Positions 1,119 to 31,148 of a stretch of DNA of 64,000 bases are shown piece by piece. Positions within the stretch are counted from its first letter, which is position 1. Each line of letters begins with the position of its first letter. Source of the stretch: an uncultured Gammaproteobacteria bacterium (GTDB taxonomy: Bacteria > Patescibacteriota > Patescibacteriia > Magasanikbacterales > GWA2-37-8); the NCBI GenBank assembly GCA_964510885.1, contig CAZEDL010000001.1, positions 129,310 through 193,309 of the forward strand. The letters are read 5' to 3'. Both the position numbers and the translations under genes were made by a program. The notes below the pieces were generated by a model that was given only the letters and a program-made list of their open reading frames with translations, was not told the DNA's origin and ran no database searches.

Positions 1119-1694
1119 ATGCTCAACAAAAAATACTTCCAAACCGTACGCGAGGAACTACTATCCTACGCCGAAAAACGTCGCGAAGTCATTAAATCCT
1201 CCGGTGATGCTCAGCACCAGGCTAAACGGGCTATTTTTGCCCTGCAGCGCGATGACCGCCCAGAAGCTAAGAAATGCCTCGATACCGCCAGCGAGCTGCT
1301 TATGGGCCTAAATAAGCGCTACCACAAGAGTCCAGAGTTATTCGAAGAAGGGTCTTACCGAGCCTCGCTTGAAGAATATGTCGAAGCTTGGCTATTTCAT
1401 GAATACCTCGAGGGTCGTGATATGGGCCCGGTCAACGGCCTCACCGTCGACCCGGATTTATATGTTAGCGGCCTCGCTGATGTTCCCGGAGAAATGCTGC
1501 GCTATGCCATTAAAGCTGCCACCGAACGCGATTTTATGATGGTAAAAAAATGCTACCAAGCTGCCGAAATGATTGTCAGCGAAATGGTAGATATGGACCT
1601 CACTGGTTATAACCGCCAAAAATTTGACCAAGCCAAACAAGCTCTCAACAAACTCCAACAAGTAGTATACGAAGTGAGCCTCAAAACGTCATAA
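1119..1694 (+). CDS. Hypothetical helical protein, possibly translin-family
   Basis: 191-aa ORF with no competing frame. The motif LEEYVEAWLFHEYLEG and its length and helical character are loosely translin-like. Assignment is tentative. Confidence 0.5.
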   Translation: MLNKKYFQTVREELLSYAEKRREVIKSSGDAQHQAKRAIFALQRDDRPEAKKCLDTASELLMGLNKRYHKSPELFEEGSYRASLEEYVEAWLFHEYLEGRDMGPVNGLTVDPDLYVSGLADVPGEMLRYAIKAATERDFMMVKKCYQAAEMIVSEMVDMDLTGYNRQKFDQAKQALNKLQQVVYEVSLKTS

Positions 1695-3513: not shown

Positions 3514-4542
3514 ATGGAAACTACTGATCTAAAACAAATGCCGCGCCTGACTAGTAATCAAAACCTACGCAATTTTATATACGGAATTGCCGGCCTCTTA
3601 ATCGTAGCAATCGTGGCTGTGGTCGGGACCGGAATCTTCCGAGTCTATCGCCAAGGAGCCACCGATCGTTTCAGCCGCACCGTGGCGAGCGCCTTGCATT
3701 TGCCAATTGCTAAAATCAACGGCGAAACCATTCTCTACAGCGATTATGCGCACGACCTTGAAGCTATTAATCTAAAAAGCGCCTACGATAAATCGCACAA
3801 TGGCCCGACCGCAAATCTTAGCAATGTTGAAAAATCAGACCAAGTATTGTGGCGCCTTAGCAACAACGCGCTTATCGAAGCCAGTGCCAAAAAATATAAT
3901 GTCACCGCTTCTCCTGAAGAGATAAAAGAGATCAGAGAAAAAATTCTGACAAAATTCAATGGCGACGCCGCCGCCGCAGACACCCAATTATCGGCTGAAT
4001 TTGGTTGGAATTTAGCCACCTATGAACAGAAGGTCGTTGTCCCTTATATTCTAGGGAGCAAAATCATAGCCATTCTCGAAACAGAGCCGACCACTCGCAA
4101 CGAAAGCCGTGCCTTGGCCCAAAGCATTCTTGATCAACTCAAAAAAGGAGCTGATTTCGCCGATCTGGCCGCCCGCTATGGCGAGGATGGCAGCGCCGAA
4201 GATGGCGGGGATCTTGGTTGGTTTGGACGCGGAGTGATGGTGCCGCAGTTTGAAACACCGGCCTTTAAACTTAAAAAAGGCGAGCTAAGCCCAGAGTTAG
4301 TTGAAACCACGTATGGGTTTCACATCATTAAAGTCGAAGACACTCGCGTAAATAATGAAAAAGATCCTAAGACCAATAAACCTGTCGGCCAAGAAATAAA
4401 AGGCCGTCATATCCTAATTCGCTTCGCTAGCTTAACCCGCTTTCTAAATGAACAAACTCGCACGGCCGATTTGCACTTATACGTAAATATCCATAATCCA
4501 TTCAAAGAGCCGCCGACCACAACTCCAGCTCCTCAATCCTAA
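3514..4542 (+). CDS. Parvulin-type peptidyl-prolyl cis-trans isomerase (PpiC/PrsA/SurA-like), membrane anchored
   Basis: N-terminal TM segment. C-terminal rotamase domain contains GADFADLAARYGEDGSAEDGGDLGWFGRGVMVPQFE...GFHIIKVED. Confidence 0.8.
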   Translation: METTDLKQMPRLTSNQNLRNFIYGIAGLLIVAIVAVVGTGIFRVYRQGATDRFSRTVASALHLPIAKINGETILYSDYAHDLEAINLKSAYDKSHNGPTANLSNVEKSDQVLWRLSNNALIEASAKKYNVTASPEEIKEIREKILTKFNGDAAAADTQLSAEFGWNLATYEQKVVVPYILGSKIIAILETEPTTRNESRALAQSILDQLKKGADFADLAARYGEDGSAEDGGDLGWFGRGVMVPQFETPAFKLKKGELSPELVETTYGFHIIKVEDTRVNNEKDPKTNKPVGQEIKGRHILIRFASLTRFLNEQTRTADLHLYVNIHNPFKEPPTTTPAPQS

Positions 4543-4565
4543 ATTCTGGCCGCCATGCGGCCTCC

Positions 4566-4636
4566 TGCGGGCGTAGTACAATGGTAGTACATTGGCTTCC
4601 CAAGCCAAGGACGTGGGTCCGATTCCCATCGCCCGC
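4566..4636 (+). tRNA. tRNA-Gly (anticodon CCC)
   Basis: GCGGGCGTAGTACAATGGTAGTACATTGGCTTCCCAAGCCAAGGACGTGGGTCCGATTCCCATCGCCCGCT. Cloverleaf with anticodon loop TTCCCAA. Very close to canonical bacterial tRNA-Gly(CCC). Confidence 0.85.
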
Positions 4637-4694
4637 TCAAAAATGAAATAAAATTTGACAACTAAATTAATCTACCGAACTTGATAACTTCCCT

Positions 4695-4818
4695 AATCGG
4701 ACAGGGGGAAGGATTGGGAACCGCCAGGTTCCCACTGCTGCTGGGGAGAGCACACGAGAGGGCGAAAGCCCTTTCGTGAGAGGCACGAAGTGCCGAGTCC
4801 GATTCCCATCGCCCGATC
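4695..4818 (+). ncRNA. Unclassified structured RNA-like element ending in a duplicate of the tRNA-Gly 3-prime end
   Basis: Outer stem ATCGGAC (4695-4701) pairs with GTCCGAT (4796-4802). Inside are three hairpins: GGGAACC-gcca-GGTTCCC, CACGAGAGGGC-GAAA-GCCCTTTCGTG with a GNRA tetraloop, and GGCAC-gaa-GTGCC. The 3-prime 23 nt, GTCCGATTCCCATCGCCCGATCA, repeat tRNA-Gly positions 4616-4638 with one mismatch. A TTGACA hexamer lies upstream at 4655-4660 and a terminator follows immediately. Confidence 0.3.
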
Positions 4819-4822
4819 AAAC

Positions 4823-4858
4823 AAAAAATCTATGCCGTCTGGCATAGATTTTTATTTT
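4823..4858. terminator. Bidirectional intrinsic terminator
   Basis: AAAAAATCTATGCC-gtct-GGCATAGATTTTTATTTT. A perfect 10-bp stem is flanked by an A-run on one side and a T-run on the other. It serves the + strand tRNA/RNA element and the convergent minus-strand gene that ends at 4868. Confidence 0.75.
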
Positions 4859-4867
4859 AAGGTATAT

Positions 4868-5206
4868 TTATCCGTATTGCTGAATCGAGCTTTTACGGGC
4901 CTCGGCCTGAGTACTGAGTTCCGTTTTAATCCGCTCCGCTTCTGCCTCAACCAGCTCCCCATCATATTCACCCGCATGAGCGGTAACACCGGTATAGACC
5001 GTTGCCCGCTGGTCAAGATGCAAATTGAGCTGAGCGGTTTCACCCCGGTCCTCAACATACAAATGAAACCGGGGGTACAAATCATGCCGTACCCGACGCA
5101 CAAAACTTTGCGTACCATGCCGACGATCTTGAAGAACACTATACCCAAGGCGGCGGAGAGTAATGGTCGGATTACCTAATTCTATTTTAGAAATCATTAT
5201 TTTCAT
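4868..5206 (-). CDS. Small protein, possibly a ribosome hibernation factor (HPF/RaiA-like); tentative
   Basis: 112 aa. The stretch LNLHLDQRATVYTGVTAHAGEYDGELVEAEAERIKTEL loosely follows the HPF pattern (LHVNG..A....DMYAAID.L.DKLERQL). The gene ends in the shared terminator. The frame competes with ORF 4852-5148. Confidence 0.3.
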   Translation of the reverse strand: MKIMISKIELGNPTITLRRLGYSVLQDRRHGTQSFVRRVRHDLYPRFHLYVEDRGETAQLNLHLDQRATVYTGVTAHAGEYDGELVEAEAERIKTELSTQAEARKSSIQQYG

Positions 5207-6013: not shown

Positions 6014-6086
6014 GCCGCCTTAGCTCAGTTGGTAGAGCGACACATTCGTAACGTGTAGGTCCGGGGTTCGATCCCCCGAGGTGGCT
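6014..6086 (+). tRNA. tRNA-Thr (anticodon CGT)
   Basis: GCCGCCTTAGCTCAGTTGGTAGAGCGACACATTCGTAACGTGTAGGTCCGGGGTTCGATCCCCCGAGGTGGCT. Anticodon loop TTCGTAA. Resembles E. coli tRNA-Thr(CGU). Confidence 0.8.
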
Positions 6087-6100
6087 CGCGTATTATCCAC

Positions 6101-6155: not shown

Positions 6156-6836
6156 ATGATAAAGCTGCATGGTGTTTCCAAATTCTATTCTCACAATTCA
6201 GTCGGCCTTCGCGATATTAATCTTGATATCAAAGCCGGAGAATTTGTCTCGGTAGTTGGCCAAAGTGGGGTAGGCAAGACCACTTTCATCAAACTTCTTA
6301 TTGCCGAAGAACGCCCTACCAAGGGTACCATCGAAATCGGCGGCTGGAATATTACCAAAATTAACCGTGATACCATTCCATACCTTCGCCGCCAGATCGG
6401 CGTAATTTTTCAGGATTTTAAATTATTGCCCAAAAAAACCGTGTTTGAAAATGTAGCTTTTGCTCTCGAAGTCGCTGGTGCACCATCCTCGCGAATCAAA
6501 GAAGTTGTCCCAAAAGTTCTTGATATCGTCGGCCTCAGCGGCAAACACCACCGCTTTCCGAACCAGATCTCTGGTGGAGAGCAGCAGCGCGTGGTTATTG
6601 CCCGATCCCTGGTGCATACACCAAAAATTATTGTGGCCGATGAGCCCACTGGCAACCTTGATTCGATTAACACCGAAGAAATTATTTCTATTCTAAAAAA
6701 AATCAACGAATTCGGCACCACGATAGTGCTTGTTACGCATAATCGCGAAGTGGTTAATCACCTACGACGCCGTGTCGTCACCTTGCATGACGGCCAAATT
6801 ATCAATGATAGCCTAGAAGGAAAGTATATCTTATAA
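6156..6836 (+). CDS. ftsE: Cell division ABC ATPase FtsE
   Basis: Walker A GQSGVGKTT, signature ISGGEQQRVVIARSL and Walker B IIVADEPTGNLD. Immediately upstream of the FtsX-like permease. Confidence 0.85.
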   Translation: MIKLHGVSKFYSHNSVGLRDINLDIKAGEFVSVVGQSGVGKTTFIKLLIAEERPTKGTIEIGGWNITKINRDTIPYLRRQIGVIFQDFKLLPKKTVFENVAFALEVAGAPSSRIKEVVPKVLDIVGLSGKHHRFPNQISGGEQQRVVIARSLVHTPKIIVADEPTGNLDSINTEEIISILKKINEFGTTIVLVTHNREVVNHLRRRVVTLHDGQIINDSLEGKYIL

Positions 6837-30176: not shown

Positions 30177-31148
30177 ATGCAGAAATCAAATACTCCTATA
30201 ATCAAGCACTTCACCCCTTTTCTTGACTACTGCGAGGTAGAGAAAGGTTTGAGTCCTACCACTACGCGCAATTATCACAATTTCCTAAAAGTCTTTGCAG
30301 ACTGGCTCACTGAGCAAAAATTAACCACGCTTAAGCCGCATGACTTAACTCAGGAACATATTTGGAACTATCGACTATTCCTTTCCCGTCACAAAGACAA
30401 GCACACCAATCAGCCAATCAAAAAAACCACCCAAAACTACTACCTAATCGCTCTACGCAACCTACTTAGCTATTTAAGCATCCGCGACATTGCCGCTCTG
30501 CCATCTGATAAAATTCAACTACCAAAATTGACTGACAAAGATAAAGCTATAAAATTTCTCACCTATGATCAGGTAGAAAAGCTGCTATCAATGCCCGATA
30601 TTACTGATGAATCTGGCCTCCGTGACCGGGCCATTCTCGAGCTCCTCTTCTCCACCGGGATGCGTGTCTCGGAACTAACGTCGCTTAATATTAGGCTATT
30701 TGATAAAAATGCTATAATCAGCGGAAAAATAACTGATCTAGAGATAAGTATTAGCGGTAAAGGTGAATCTACGCGCACCGTATACTTCTCAACCCGGGCG
30801 CTCAAATGGCTGGGTGCATACCTCAAAACCCGTCAAAACGACCTCTACCCCCCTCTGTTCATTAATTACGCCAAAACCCAAAAAGATAATACCGAACGCC
30901 GACTCACTCCCCGCTCTATCGAACGCCTAGTGCGTCAATACACCAGCATGGCCGGTCTGCCAGTGGATGCCACCCCCCATACCCTGCGCCACAGCTTTGC
31001 TACCGACCTTTTGGATCAAGGAGCTGACATGCGCTCGGTGCAAGAACTGCTTGGGCACAAAAATATTGTTACCACCCAAATTTATACGCACGTGACCAAC
31101 AAAAAATTGCACGATATTCATACTAAATTCCATCGAGGGAATAAATAA
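30177..31148 (+). CDS. xerC: Tyrosine site-specific recombinase, XerC/XerD-like
   Basis: Catalytic residues in conserved context: RDRAILELLFSTGMRVSEL, HTLRHSFATDLL, LGHKNIVTTQIYTHV. An insertion of about 35 aa (LFDKNAIISGKITDLEISISGKGE) lies between the R box and the H box. Confidence 0.85.
   Translation: MQKSNTPIIKHFTPFLDYCEVEKGLSPTTTRNYHNFLKVFADWLTEQKLTTLKPHDLTQEHIWNYRLFLSRHKDKHTNQPIKKTTQNYYLIALRNLLSYLSIRDIAALPSDKIQLPKLTDKDKAIKFLTYDQVEKLLSMPDITDESGLRDRAILELLFSTGMRVSELTSLNIRLFDKNAIISGKITDLEISISGKGESTRTVYFSTRALKWLGAYLKTRQNDLYPPLFINYAKTQKDNTERRLTPRSIERLVRQYTSMAGLPVDATPHTLRHSFATDLLDQGADMRSVQELLGHKNIVTTQIYTHVTNKKLHDIHTKFHRGNK

What the first reader, a model, noticed from the sequence alone, without database searches (positions are those of the whole stretch)
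4566..4858. tRNA-Gly followed by a compact structured RNA-like element that re-creates the tRNA 3-prime end
An AT-rich stretch containing a TTGACA hexamer lies 59 nt downstream of tRNA-Gly(CCC). A ~108-nt element follows, closed by a 7-bp long-range stem (4695-4701 with 4796-4802). It encloses three tight hairpins, one of them a GAAA tetraloop. It ends with GTCCGATTCCCATCGCCCGATCA, a 23/24 direct repeat of the tRNA-Gly 3-prime T-arm and acceptor (4616-4638). A perfect 10-bp bidirectional terminator follows immediately. Integrative elements typically duplicate a tRNA 3-prime end as attL/attR. Here the intervening cargo is only ~160 nt. I read it as either the scar of an excised or decayed integrative element that used tRNA-Gly as att site, or a small tRNA-associated regulatory RNA. 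It is not a tRNA with an intron; no 5-prime acceptor partner exists.
Basis: seen in the sequence. Interest (0 to 1): 0.6.

Follow-up and report, generated by a model that had tools for sequence, protein, structure and literature searches.

The report
Conserved structured RNA behind tRNA-Gly
Just after a glycine tRNA gene in a tiny-genome (Patescibacteria) bacterium lies a roughly 125-base folded RNA of no known family that ends in a second copy of the tRNA's tail; a distant relative keeps it with matching base-pair swaps, so it is probably a working RNA rather than a dead insertion scar, though what it does is unknown.

Summary
tRNA-Gly(CCC) lies at 4567-4638. Its T-loop-to-3'-end (4617-4635) recurs exactly at 4797-4815. 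Between them are an AT-rich spacer and a four-helix element: P1 (8 bp), H1 (7), H2 (11, GAAA loop) and H3 (5). A 13-bp terminator follows.

No Rfam family matches and there is no second tRNA.

One related genome, L003, has synonymous sites close to saturation against the window. It carries the same element at the same locus, abutting the tRNA. All 31 pairs are kept, with 3 compensatory double changes and none broken, while the loops differ. The one T-loop base that differs between the two tRNAs also differs in the distal copy and in its P1 partner.

Pattern scans of three collections, using patterns built from these two sequences, found no further copy. Each genome examined has a single copy.

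In other relatives the same PpiC-tRNA-Gly site is followed by different cargo: a restriction-modification island, or a serine-recombinase element.

My reading is a new, narrowly distributed structured RNA under selection. It is built into an att-like tRNA 3' duplication that an integrative element probably left. Its function is not established. An inert scar is unlikely. The spacer promoter is not supported. All comparative evidence rests on two sequences.

The parts
4567..4638 (+). tRNA-Gly(CCC). The T loop is UCCGAUU (C at position 55). No CCA is encoded; the gene continues ...CGCCCGC-U-CAA.
   Evidence: ARAGORN. Rfam tRNA at 68.5 bits. It is 71/72 identical to the L003 tRNA-Gly.
4617..4649 (+). 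Proximal (attL-like) copy of the direct repeat. It covers the T loop, T-stem 3' strand, acceptor 3' strand, discriminator, CAA and a few A-rich bases.
   Evidence: the repeat finder family D1. Exact 19-mer 4617-4635.
4639..4694 (+). AT-rich 56-nt spacer that is present only in the window; in L003 the element abuts the tRNA. It contains TTGACA (4655-4660) and a possible extended -10, TGATAACTT (4682-4690). That -10 would place a transcription start at about 4696, the first bases of P1. The promoter is my inference only.
   Evidence: Alignment of the window against L003. The promoter scan was negative. The extended -10 was read by eye.
4695..4702 (+). P1 5' strand, AAUCGGAC. It is complementary to GUCCGAUU, the T-loop sequence, which occurs both in the distal copy and in the tRNA itself.
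   Evidence: L003 has AAUCGAAC paired with GUUCGAUU, a compensatory change.
4703..4715 (+). J1, a G-rich joining strand (AGGGGGAAGGAUU). It is variable in sequence: L003 has CAGGGAGGGGUA.
4716..4733 (+). H1 hairpin, GGGAACC/GGUUCCC. The stem is invariant. The loop is GCCA in the window and GAAC in L003.
4734..4752 (+). J2, a variable segment that can form a small hairpin of its own. It ends in the conserved GGAGAG motif.
4753..4778 (+). H2 hairpin, 11 bp. The loop is GAAA in the window and AGAA in L003. One A-U to G-C compensatory change is present. A G.U pair is conserved in both genomes and would be an A.C mismatch on the minus strand.
4779..4796 (+). J3 (AGA), then the H3 hairpin (GGCAC GAA GUGCC; L003 has GGCGC CGCA GCGCC, a compensatory change), then J4 (GA). 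J3 and J4 are invariant.
4797..4804 (+). P1 3' strand, GUCCGAUU. This is the T-loop part of the distal copy of the repeat.
4805..4820 (+). C-rich 3' tail, CCCAUCGCCCGAUCAA, predicted to be single-stranded. It matches the tRNA's T-stem 3' strand, acceptor 3' strand, discriminator and CAA at 15 of 16 positions, and the L003 tail at 15 of 16.
4819..4858 (.). Bidirectional intrinsic terminator. It has 13 perfect pairs (AAAAATCTATGCC / GGCATAGATTTTT) and a GTCT loop. It serves the tRNA/element transcript on the + strand and the convergent 112-aa gene (4868-5206) on the - strand.
   Evidence: inverted repeat I1. One search flagged it on the - strand; the + strand T run was read directly. The weak Rfam matches here are terminator-like only.

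Best explanation
4695-4820 is a real, selectively maintained structured RNA of a new and very narrowly distributed family. It lies on the + strand in the 3' trailer of tRNA-Gly(CCC).

Architecture. An 8-bp closing helix (P1) encloses a multi-helix junction with three perfect hairpins. A C-rich single-stranded tail follows.

Origin. The P1 3' strand and the tail are a displaced copy of the tRNA's T-loop-to-3'-end. An integrase-type insertion into a tRNA gene leaves exactly this footprint. I therefore read the element as the surviving, domesticated RNA module of an element that once integrated at this hot-spot tRNA. It could also be a minimal form that has no integrase.

Inferred life cycle. In L003 the RNA is made as part of the tRNA transcript, and the tRNA 3'-processing cut, two bases before P1, frees it. 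In the window a 56-nt spacer may supply its own start at P1, and the terminator at 4858 ends it. The product would be about 125-165 nt.

Inferred action. A compact folded body presents an unpaired stretch identical to the tRNA-Gly 3' strand. This would work as a stable trans-acting or protein-binding small RNA, or as a mimic of the tRNA 3' strand.

Shown: the structure, the selection on it, the synteny and the single copy. Inferred: the integrative origin, the transcript ends and the activity.
For: Structure is conserved by compensation:
- All 31 pairs form in both genomes.
- Three pairs changed on both sides: G-C to A-U in P1, and A-U to G-C in H2 and in H3.
- No pair changed on one side only and none is broken. 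Sliding the 3' partners by 1-3 columns drops pairing to 25-48%.
- The chance of breaking no pair with 6 random substitutions in 62 stem bases is 2e-4. Leaving P1 out, it is 3e-3.
- Loops differ at 3 of 4 and 2 of 4 positions, and by an indel.

Constraint: third codon positions of six flanking genes are only 33-47% identical between the genomes. The element is 83-88% identical.

Three-way covariation: the single tRNA difference (T-loop C against U) is mirrored in the distal copy and in P1a.

Same syntenic slot in both genomes, PpiC - tRNA-Gly - element - convergent small gene. L003 leaves only about 5 nt before the next gene's stop codon.

Single copy:
- A covariance model and blastn find no other copy in the window or the held loci.
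- The genome-collection scan found only the L003 contig.

Strand: a G.U pair in H2 is conserved in both genomes and becomes A.C on the minus strand.

Origin:
- The repeat starts at the T loop and is a same-orientation 3' fragment, as in tDNA islands (PMC4383910).
- The site carries other mobile cargo in relatives.
- The L002 tRNA-Gly is only 54/74 identical, while tRNA-Lys is 71-73/74 identical among the three genomes.
Against: Only two independent sequences exist. L054 is identical to the window, so covariation rests on three pairs. The tool's own shuffle control is weak with two rows (57 of 500 shuffles reach the observed values).

No expression data are available. The promoter scan of the spacer is negative. 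L003 has no terminator after the element.

No target for the tail was found in the 64 kb.

No integrase lies between the repeats. The sequence to the left of the distal T loop (CCGAG) does not mirror the T stem, as a symmetric core site would.

Identity of the tail to the tRNA could come from gene conversion rather than selection.

Both strands fold equally well by z-score.

Single-sequence minimum-energy folds prefer other long-range pairings.
Confidence: 0.55

Rival explanations
1. Cis-acting switch on tRNA-Gly maturation. The P1 5' strand (AAUCGRAC) can pair with the tRNA's own T loop, which would unfold the tRNA, or with the distal decoy copy, which would leave the tRNA free. Likewise the tRNA 5' body can pair with either of the two 3' halves. 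The structured core would set the balance and so tune how much functional tRNA-Gly(CCC) is produced.
For: P1a is complementary to both copies in both genomes, and all three sites changed together. In L003, P1a directly follows the tRNA and can form a 9-bp hairpin with its T loop. The whole tRNA 3' strand is conserved in the distal copy, not only the P1 part. Constrained folds of the full transcript put the two arrangements within 3-9 kcal/mol of each other. The unconstrained minimum pairs the tRNA 5' end with the distal 3' strand in both genomes.
Against: The energy models ignore tRNA tertiary structure and co-transcriptional folding, both of which favour the normal cloverleaf. In the window a 56-nt spacer separates P1a from the tRNA. 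No ligand, sensor or regulated output can be identified. Nothing explains why three perfect hairpins are needed. The other tRNAs in these genomes have no such trailer.
Confidence: 0.13
2. Inert scar. An integrative element entered the tRNA-Gly T loop and then lost almost everything. The hairpins are leftovers, or former protein-binding or terminator sequences, with no present function.
For: The footprint is att-like. The locus is an integration hot spot. No gene lies inside. No Rfam family matches. The element is absent from L002 and from all other relatives sampled.
Against: A neutral relic should be unrecognisable between genomes whose synonymous sites are near saturation. Instead identity is 83-88%, every stem substitution is compensated and the loops are free to vary. 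A compact genome keeps the element although only about 5 nt separate it from the next gene in L003.
Confidence: 0.1
3. Still-mobile miniature integrative element, CIME-like. An integrase-less unit bounded by attL and attR would be excised and integrated by a recombinase encoded elsewhere. The hairpins would act at the DNA level, for example in a folded single strand that rebuilds a duplex copy of the T-loop core.
For: Both att-like repeats are intact: 19-33 nt in the window and 25 nt exact in L003. The P1 stem reproduces the att core as a duplex and tracks the host tRNA variant. A tyrosine recombinase gene lies in the window at 30177-31148. By definition CIMEs keep attL and attR without an integrase (PMC6323972).
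Against: There is a single copy per genome at the same syntenic slot in both. No copy was found in viral, phage or plasmid collections. A 125-180-bp circle is an implausible duplex recombination substrate. The recombinase sits in a housekeeping context 25 kb away and looks Xer-like. The conserved G.U pair argues for RNA.
Confidence: 0.08
4. Degenerate tandem tRNA-Gly copy, a pseudogene or an inverted and direct partial duplication of the tRNA, or else a diverged member of an already described RNA family.
For: The 3' 23 nt are tRNA sequence. GGAUUGGGAA (4711-4720) is 9 of 10 complementary to the anticodon loop (repeat I3). H1's GGUUCCCA resembles the anticodon loop.
Against: ARAGORN and the Rfam tRNA model see one tRNA only, even at E up to 10. 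The core does not align to the tRNA, sense or antisense, better than shuffles do (338/2000 and 182/2000 shuffles for antisense, over 1600/2000 for sense). No Rfam family is hit consistently in both genomes.
Confidence: 0.04

Closest known systems
tRNA-gene (tDNA) genomic islands made by tyrosine integrases, T-loop/junction crossover class (Islander, PMC4383910; Williams 2002, as cited there)
   Same: An intact tRNA gene is followed by a displaced 3' fragment of the same tRNA in the same orientation. The fragment begins at the T loop and runs past the 3' end. The site is used by other mobile cargo in related genomes.
   Different: The 'island' is only 125-180 bp and holds no integrase or any other gene. 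Its content is a covarying structured RNA. The left flank of the distal core is not symmetric with the T stem. It is single-copy and syntenic in two diverged genomes, so it was inherited, not recently inserted.
Cis-mobilizable elements (CIMEs): attL/attR kept, integration and transfer genes lost (ICEberg 2.0, PMC6323972)
   Same: It is bounded by intact att-like repeats and has no recombinase of its own.
   Different: CIMEs are kilobase-scale gene-carrying islands with a known cognate ICE. Here no partner element, no mobility and no cargo other than an RNA fold can be shown.
3' external transcribed spacer sRNA of a tRNA operon (3'ETS-leuZ of E. coli; Lalaouna 2015, as summarised in PMC8166272)
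   Same: It is a functional-looking RNA in a tRNA 3' trailer, on the tRNA strand and upstream of the operon terminator. tRNA 3' processing would release it.
   Different: 3'ETS-leuZ is 53 nt, Hfq-dependent and acts as a sponge for known sRNAs. This element is 2-3 times longer, forms a closed multi-helix junction and re-uses tRNA sequence. It has no known partner, and excision has not been shown.
Group I introns in Patescibacteria tRNA genes (PMC13011429)
   Same: Both involve the same phylum and extra structured RNA associated with a tRNA gene.
   Different: Those introns interrupt the anticodon loop (position 35/36 and others), match group I models and splice. This element lies after an intact tRNA, is too small and matches no intron model.

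Membership tests
tRNA (second gene or pseudogene) | A cloverleaf detectable by ARAGORN or by Rfam RF00005 (29-bit threshold) | tested here: not met
   Only 4567-4638 is called. No second tRNA match appears even at E up to 10 on 4540-4880 or in L003. The core does not align to the tRNA above shuffles.
tDNA genomic island (Islander criteria) | An intact tDNA plus a displaced fragment of it in the same orientation | tested here: met
   4617-4635 equals 4797-4815, both on the + strand. L003 has a 25-nt exact repeat.
tDNA genomic island (Islander criteria) | The fragment starts at a recognised crossover subsite: anticodon loop, T loop, or T/acceptor junction | tested here: met
   The repeat begins at the last T-stem base and T loop in both genomes. 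Subsites are as listed in PMC4383910.
tDNA genomic island (Islander criteria) | An integrase gene lies between the tDNA and the fragment | tested here: not met
   The interval is 160 nt in the window and 104 nt in L003, with no ORF. The nearest recombinase gene is at 30177-31148.
CIME (cis-mobilizable element) | attL and attR are retained, and integration and transfer genes are absent | tested here: met
   The definition is from PMC6323972.
CIME (cis-mobilizable element) | Derived from, and mobilised by, an identifiable cognate integrative element; evidence of movement | tested here: inconclusive
   No related element was found in the viral, phage, plasmid, genome or metagenome scans. The copy is single and syntenic. 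Read-level evidence of excision could not be examined.
tRNA 3'ETS-type small RNA | Encoded in the tRNA 3' trailer on the tRNA strand, upstream of the terminator | tested here: met
   The conserved G.U pair supports the + strand.
tRNA 3'ETS-type small RNA | Excised as a stable RNA species that pairs with defined RNA partners | not testable with these tools
   No transcript data are available. A search of the 64 kb for sequences complementary to the tail gave nothing beyond the locus itself.
Any Rfam 15 family (including ribozymes, riboswitches, tmRNA, SRP, 6S, group I introns) | A match at the family's gathering score | tested here: not met
   Only tRNAs pass. The sub-threshold matches differ between the two genomes, or cover only the terminator or the tRNA.
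Intrinsic terminator (4819-4858) | A GC-containing stem-loop followed by a T run | tested here: met
   The stem has 13 pairs. The scan flags it on the - strand. On the + strand the stem is followed by TTTTTATTTT.

The most novel reading that the evidence does not exclude
The RNA could be the working part of a minimal tRNA-targeting element. It would be a folded scaffold carrying two guide-like segments that together match both strands of the tRNA-Gly T-loop att core. P1a is complementary to the sense strand. P1b plus the tail is identical to the sense strand. The RNA could then direct a recombinase or nuclease encoded elsewhere to that site, or hold the two att copies together. That would be RNA-guided site choice at a tRNA gene. 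The three-way covariation with the host tRNA's T loop is what such a guide would require.
Probability: 0.04. Interest if true: 0.9.

Novelty: new variant of a known kind. Interest (0 to 1): 0.45.

Why it matters
If the reading is right, a footprint normally dismissed as an integration scar has become part of a selected RNA fold. The displaced tRNA fragment forms the closing helix and tail of a small RNA and evolves in step with the tRNA it came from.

That would add a new structured-RNA family to Patescibacteria. These organisms have very few known regulators and unusually frequent RNA-level oddities.

It would also give a concrete case of how mobile-element debris at tRNA genes is recruited.

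The locus further offers a testable model for whether a tRNA trailer can compete with, or mimic, the tRNA's own 3' half.

The practical limit is that only two genomes carry the element, so any general importance is unproven.

Tried and rejected
- **Known RNA family.** Rfam at gathering and at E up to 10 on both genomes gave only tRNA and terminator-like noise.
- **Second tRNA, tmRNA or permuted tmRNA.** None found.
- **Core derived from the tRNA, sense or antisense.** Local alignments are no better than shuffles. The 9/10 complementarity of 4711-4720 to the anticodon loop is only 6/7 in L003, and I treat it as chance.
- **More family members by pattern scans.**
  - Viral contigs, six patterns: only a phage tRNA-Gly and chance hits, or nothing.
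  - JGI metagenome contigs with closing stem plus distal junction: two chance hits.
  - GTDB species genomes with the H2/J3 pattern: only the L003 contig.
  - Phage and plasmid BLAST: nothing.
- **More members by synteny.**
  - Homologues of the downstream 112-aa gene (L045-L050, L052, L053) have no tRNA-Gly or element beside them.
  - PpiC relatives L002, L058 and L060 have the tRNA but not the element.
- **Other copies in the window.** blastn and a covariance model with filters off found none.
- **Promoter in the spacer.** Not found by the scan. An extended -10 seen by eye remains speculative.
- **Targets of the C-rich tail in the window.** None found.
- **Hammerhead, HDV-like, hairpin-ribozyme, glycine-riboswitch, integron attC and SRP resemblances.** I considered these from memory. 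None is backed by a model match or by the required core motifs.
- **Pseudoknot between J1 and the tail.** Possible on paper, but imperfect and sterically awkward, so I do not claim it.
- **Thermodynamic comparison of the two global folds.** Not decisive.

Full report
**What is there**

The window carries tRNA-Gly(CCC) at 4567-4638. Its T loop, T-stem 3' strand and acceptor 3' strand (4617-4635) recur exactly at 4797-4815. The similarity extends to 33 nt at 88%. Even with three mismatches allowed there are only these two matches in 64 kb, and no shuffle gives two.

Between the copies lie a 56-nt AT-rich spacer (4639-4694) and a GC-rich element. I segmented the element as follows:
- P1a 4695-4702
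- J1 4703-4715
- H1 4716-4733
- J2 4734-4752
- H2 4753-4778
- J3 4779-4781
- H3 4782-4794
- J4 4795-4796
- P1b 4797-4804
- tail 4805-4820

A 13-bp terminator hairpin follows within 4819-4858. The element folds far better than shuffles do (z about -5.3).

The closing stem is 8 bp and sits one or two bases further along. TTGACA is 17 nt after the tRNA, not 59. The promoter scan does not support a sigma-70 promoter in the spacer.

**Context**

The flanking genes are:
- a Translin-family protein
- a Mur ligase
- DivIC
- a PpiC-type isomerase
- FtsE/FtsX
- MreB/MreC
- a PBP
- aminoacyl-tRNA synthetases

The closest named relatives of the PpiC protein are Candidatus Magasanikbacteria / Patescibacteria. 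This is a housekeeping region of a small-genome bacterium, not an island.

**The key comparison**

A related genome, L003 (contig CAZPCV010000009.1), has the same gene order and the same element. There it follows the tRNA directly with no spacer and ends about 5 nt before the stop codon of the convergent gene.

The two genomes are far apart. Six flanking proteins are 32-78% identical, and third codon positions are only 33-47% identical, close to saturation. The element is nevertheless 83-88% identical.

In a register-corrected alignment all 31 base pairs of P1, H1, H2 and H3 form in both genomes. Three pairs changed on both sides, none changed on one side and none is broken. Sliding the partners by one to three columns drops pairing to 25-48%. 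Six random substitutions in the 62 stem bases would leave every pair intact with probability about 2e-4. Excluding P1, the figure is 3e-3. The hairpin loops differ at 3 of 4 and 2 of 4 positions and by an indel. The short joiners AGA and GA and a GGAGAG motif are invariant.

With only two sequences the tool's own shuffle control is weak (57 of 500). I therefore regard the structure as well supported but not proven.

A G.U pair in H2, kept in both genomes, becomes A.C on the other strand. Together with the tRNA's orientation this points to the + strand, although both strands fold well by z-score.

**The tRNA-derived part evolves with the tRNA**

The two tRNA-Gly genes differ at one base (T-loop C against U, 71/72). 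The distal copy carries the same difference in each genome, and P1a carries the complementary change. The 16-nt tail differs from its own tRNA at one position in the window and at none in L003.

So the distal copy is kept tRNA-like, either by selection or by gene conversion. P1 pairing is kept as well. P1a can equally pair with the tRNA's own T loop.

The other tRNAs in these genomes have neither a duplicated 3' end nor a strong T-loop complement in the trailer.

**Distribution**

I found no third independent example.
- A Logan contig (L054) is identical to the window.
- Pattern scans of viral contigs gave chance hits or nothing.
- The JGI metagenome contigs gave chance hits only.
- The one-genome-per-species collection returned only the L003 contig.
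- Phage and plasmid BLAST found nothing.
- A covariance model built from the two sequences found no other copy in the window or in any held locus.

The element is therefore rare, single-copy and syntenic. This argues for inheritance from a common ancestor rather than for a proliferating mobile element. These scans used exact patterns derived from two sequences, so diverged relatives would be missed.

**Origin**

A regenerated tRNA gene plus a displaced same-orientation 3' fragment is the standard mark of integrase-mediated insertion into a tRNA gene. The T loop is one of the recognised crossover subsites (PMC4383910).

The site is demonstrably a hot spot. In other relatives with the same Translin - Mur - DivIC - PpiC - tRNA-Gly(CCC) order, the tRNA is followed by different things:
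- an HTH gene, a RadC/DNA-methylase gene and a HaeII restriction enzyme in L058
- a large serine recombinase and Prim-Pol in L060
- unrelated genes in L002

The L002 tRNA-Gly is only 54/74 identical to the window's, although tRNA-Lys is 71-73/74 identical among the three genomes. This suggests gene turnover at this tRNA.

Against a simple island reading, there is no integrase or any ORF between the repeats. The sequence to the left of the distal T loop does not mirror the T stem. Cargo of 104-160 nt is far below any known island.

**How it most likely works**

Shown: a compact RNA-type fold under purifying selection, on the tRNA strand, between the tRNA and the end of the transcription unit.

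Inferred:
- In L003 the RNA is transcribed with the tRNA, and the tRNA 3'-end cut, two bases before P1, frees it.
- In the window it is either processed from the longer trailer or started at P1 by a possible extended -10 (TGATAACTT, 4682-4690). I saw that motif by eye and it is not supported by the scan.
- It ends at the terminator.
- The folded body would protect the RNA and present the C-rich tail, which is identical to the tRNA-Gly 3' strand.

I commit to a stable small RNA that acts in trans or binds a protein and is derived from a domesticated integration footprint. Confidence is about 0.55 for the core claim (a selected structured RNA in an att-like duplication) and much lower for the mode of action.

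The main rivals are:
- a cis-acting switch in which P1a alternates between the tRNA's T loop and the decoy copy (0.13; the two global folds are close in energy, but this is not decisive)
- an inert scar (0.10; contradicted by the constraint)
- a still-mobile integrase-less mini-element acting at the DNA level (0.08; contradicted by the single syntenic copy)
- a tRNA pseudogene or a missed known family (0.04)

**Comparison with known systems**

The element resembles four known things and belongs to none:
- It shares the footprint of tDNA islands but fails their integrase criterion.
- It fits the bare definition of a CIME (att sites without an integrase, PMC6323972), but has no cognate element or mobility.
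- It sits where 3'ETS-type sRNAs sit (PMC8166272), but is larger, closed by a long-range helix and built partly from tRNA sequence.
- It is unrelated to the anticodon-loop group I introns of Patescibacteria tRNA genes (PMC13011429).

**Verdict**

The feature is real. It is a new structured-RNA family of very narrow distribution, and it is an unusual variant of two known themes: the tRNA-gene integration footprint and the tRNA-trailer RNA. The displaced tRNA fragment has become part of the fold and co-varies with the tRNA.

Interest is moderate at 0.45. The three-way covariation is a real curiosity, and the hypothesis can be tested. But only two genomes carry the element and no function can be assigned.

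Noticed in passing
window 4548-4562; L003 5017-5033; L058 about 3534-3561; L060 about 3540-3563: A short GC-rich hairpin sits between the PpiC stop codon and tRNA-Gly in all four relatives. Its sequence differs each time (GGCCGC-CAT-GCGGCC in the window, CCCGCC-ATACA-GGCGGG in L003). It is probably the PpiC terminator or a processing hairpin kept by compensation.
   Followed up: partly
window 4617-4623 (tRNA T loop); also L002 5129-5135 and phage contig L001 5306-5312: The tRNA-Gly(CCC) T loop reads UCCGAUU, with C where nearly all tRNAs have U55. L003 has the usual UUCGAUU. The same variant occurs in a viral-contig tRNA-Gly(CCC) that shares the whole 3' half.
   Followed up: partly
L002 5079-5152 against window 4567-4638: The L002 tRNA-Gly(CCC), in the same slot after PpiC, is only 54/74 identical to the window's. 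tRNA-Lys is 71-73/74 identical among the three roughly equidistant genomes. The tRNA-Gly gene seems to have been replaced in one lineage.
   Followed up: partly
L060 3630-6026; L058 3740-6011: In two more distant relatives the same tRNA-Gly is followed by mobile cargo. L060 has a large serine recombinase plus Prim-Pol, with the recombinase gene call overlapping the tRNA 3' end. L058 has an HTH gene, a RadC/DNA-methylase fusion and a HaeII-type restriction enzyme. The far ends were outside the fetched DNA.
   Followed up: partly
L003 6500-7090: L003 has a T5orf172/MUG113-domain gene (nuclease-like, typical of mobile DNA) inserted just after tRNA-Thr. The window has none there: tRNA-Thr at 6014-6087 is followed directly by FtsE at 6156.
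   Followed up: no
window 4669-4680: The window-specific spacer contains AATCTACCGAAC. With four bases removed this equals AATCGAAC, the P1 5' strand of L003 that matches a U55-type T loop. It may be a relic of an older P1 strand, or it may be chance.
   Followed up: no
window 1119-1694: A Translin-family protein gene lies next to tRNA-Lys. It is conserved (84-87% identity) at the same position in all relatives examined. This family is usually discussed for eukaryotes and archaea.
   Followed up: no
window 30177-31148: A tyrosine recombinase gene (Phage_integrase plus an N-terminal SAM-like domain) lies among housekeeping genes. It looks Xer-like and is the only recombinase found in the 31 window ORFs that I scanned against Pfam (31 ORFs scanned against Pfam, none beyond about 32.7 kb).
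   Followed up: partly
L053 423-683: A 260-nt GC-rich intergenic region with long perfect hairpins lies downstream of a homologue of the 112-aa gene in an unrelated context. It has no tRNA, no Rfam match, and no match to the covariance model of this element.
   Followed up: partly
L050 1461-2803: In one contig the homologue of the window's 112-aa hypothetical protein (4868-5206, no Pfam domain, widespread in Patescibacteria) lies 3 nt downstream of a tyrosine recombinase gene, as if in one operon.
   Followed up: no
L051 / L003 (contig CAZPCV010000009.1): The public record is titled 'uncultured Gammaproteobacteria bacterium'. Its gene order and proteins match Patescibacteria (Magasanikbacteria-like) relatives, so the label is probably wrong.
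   Followed up: no
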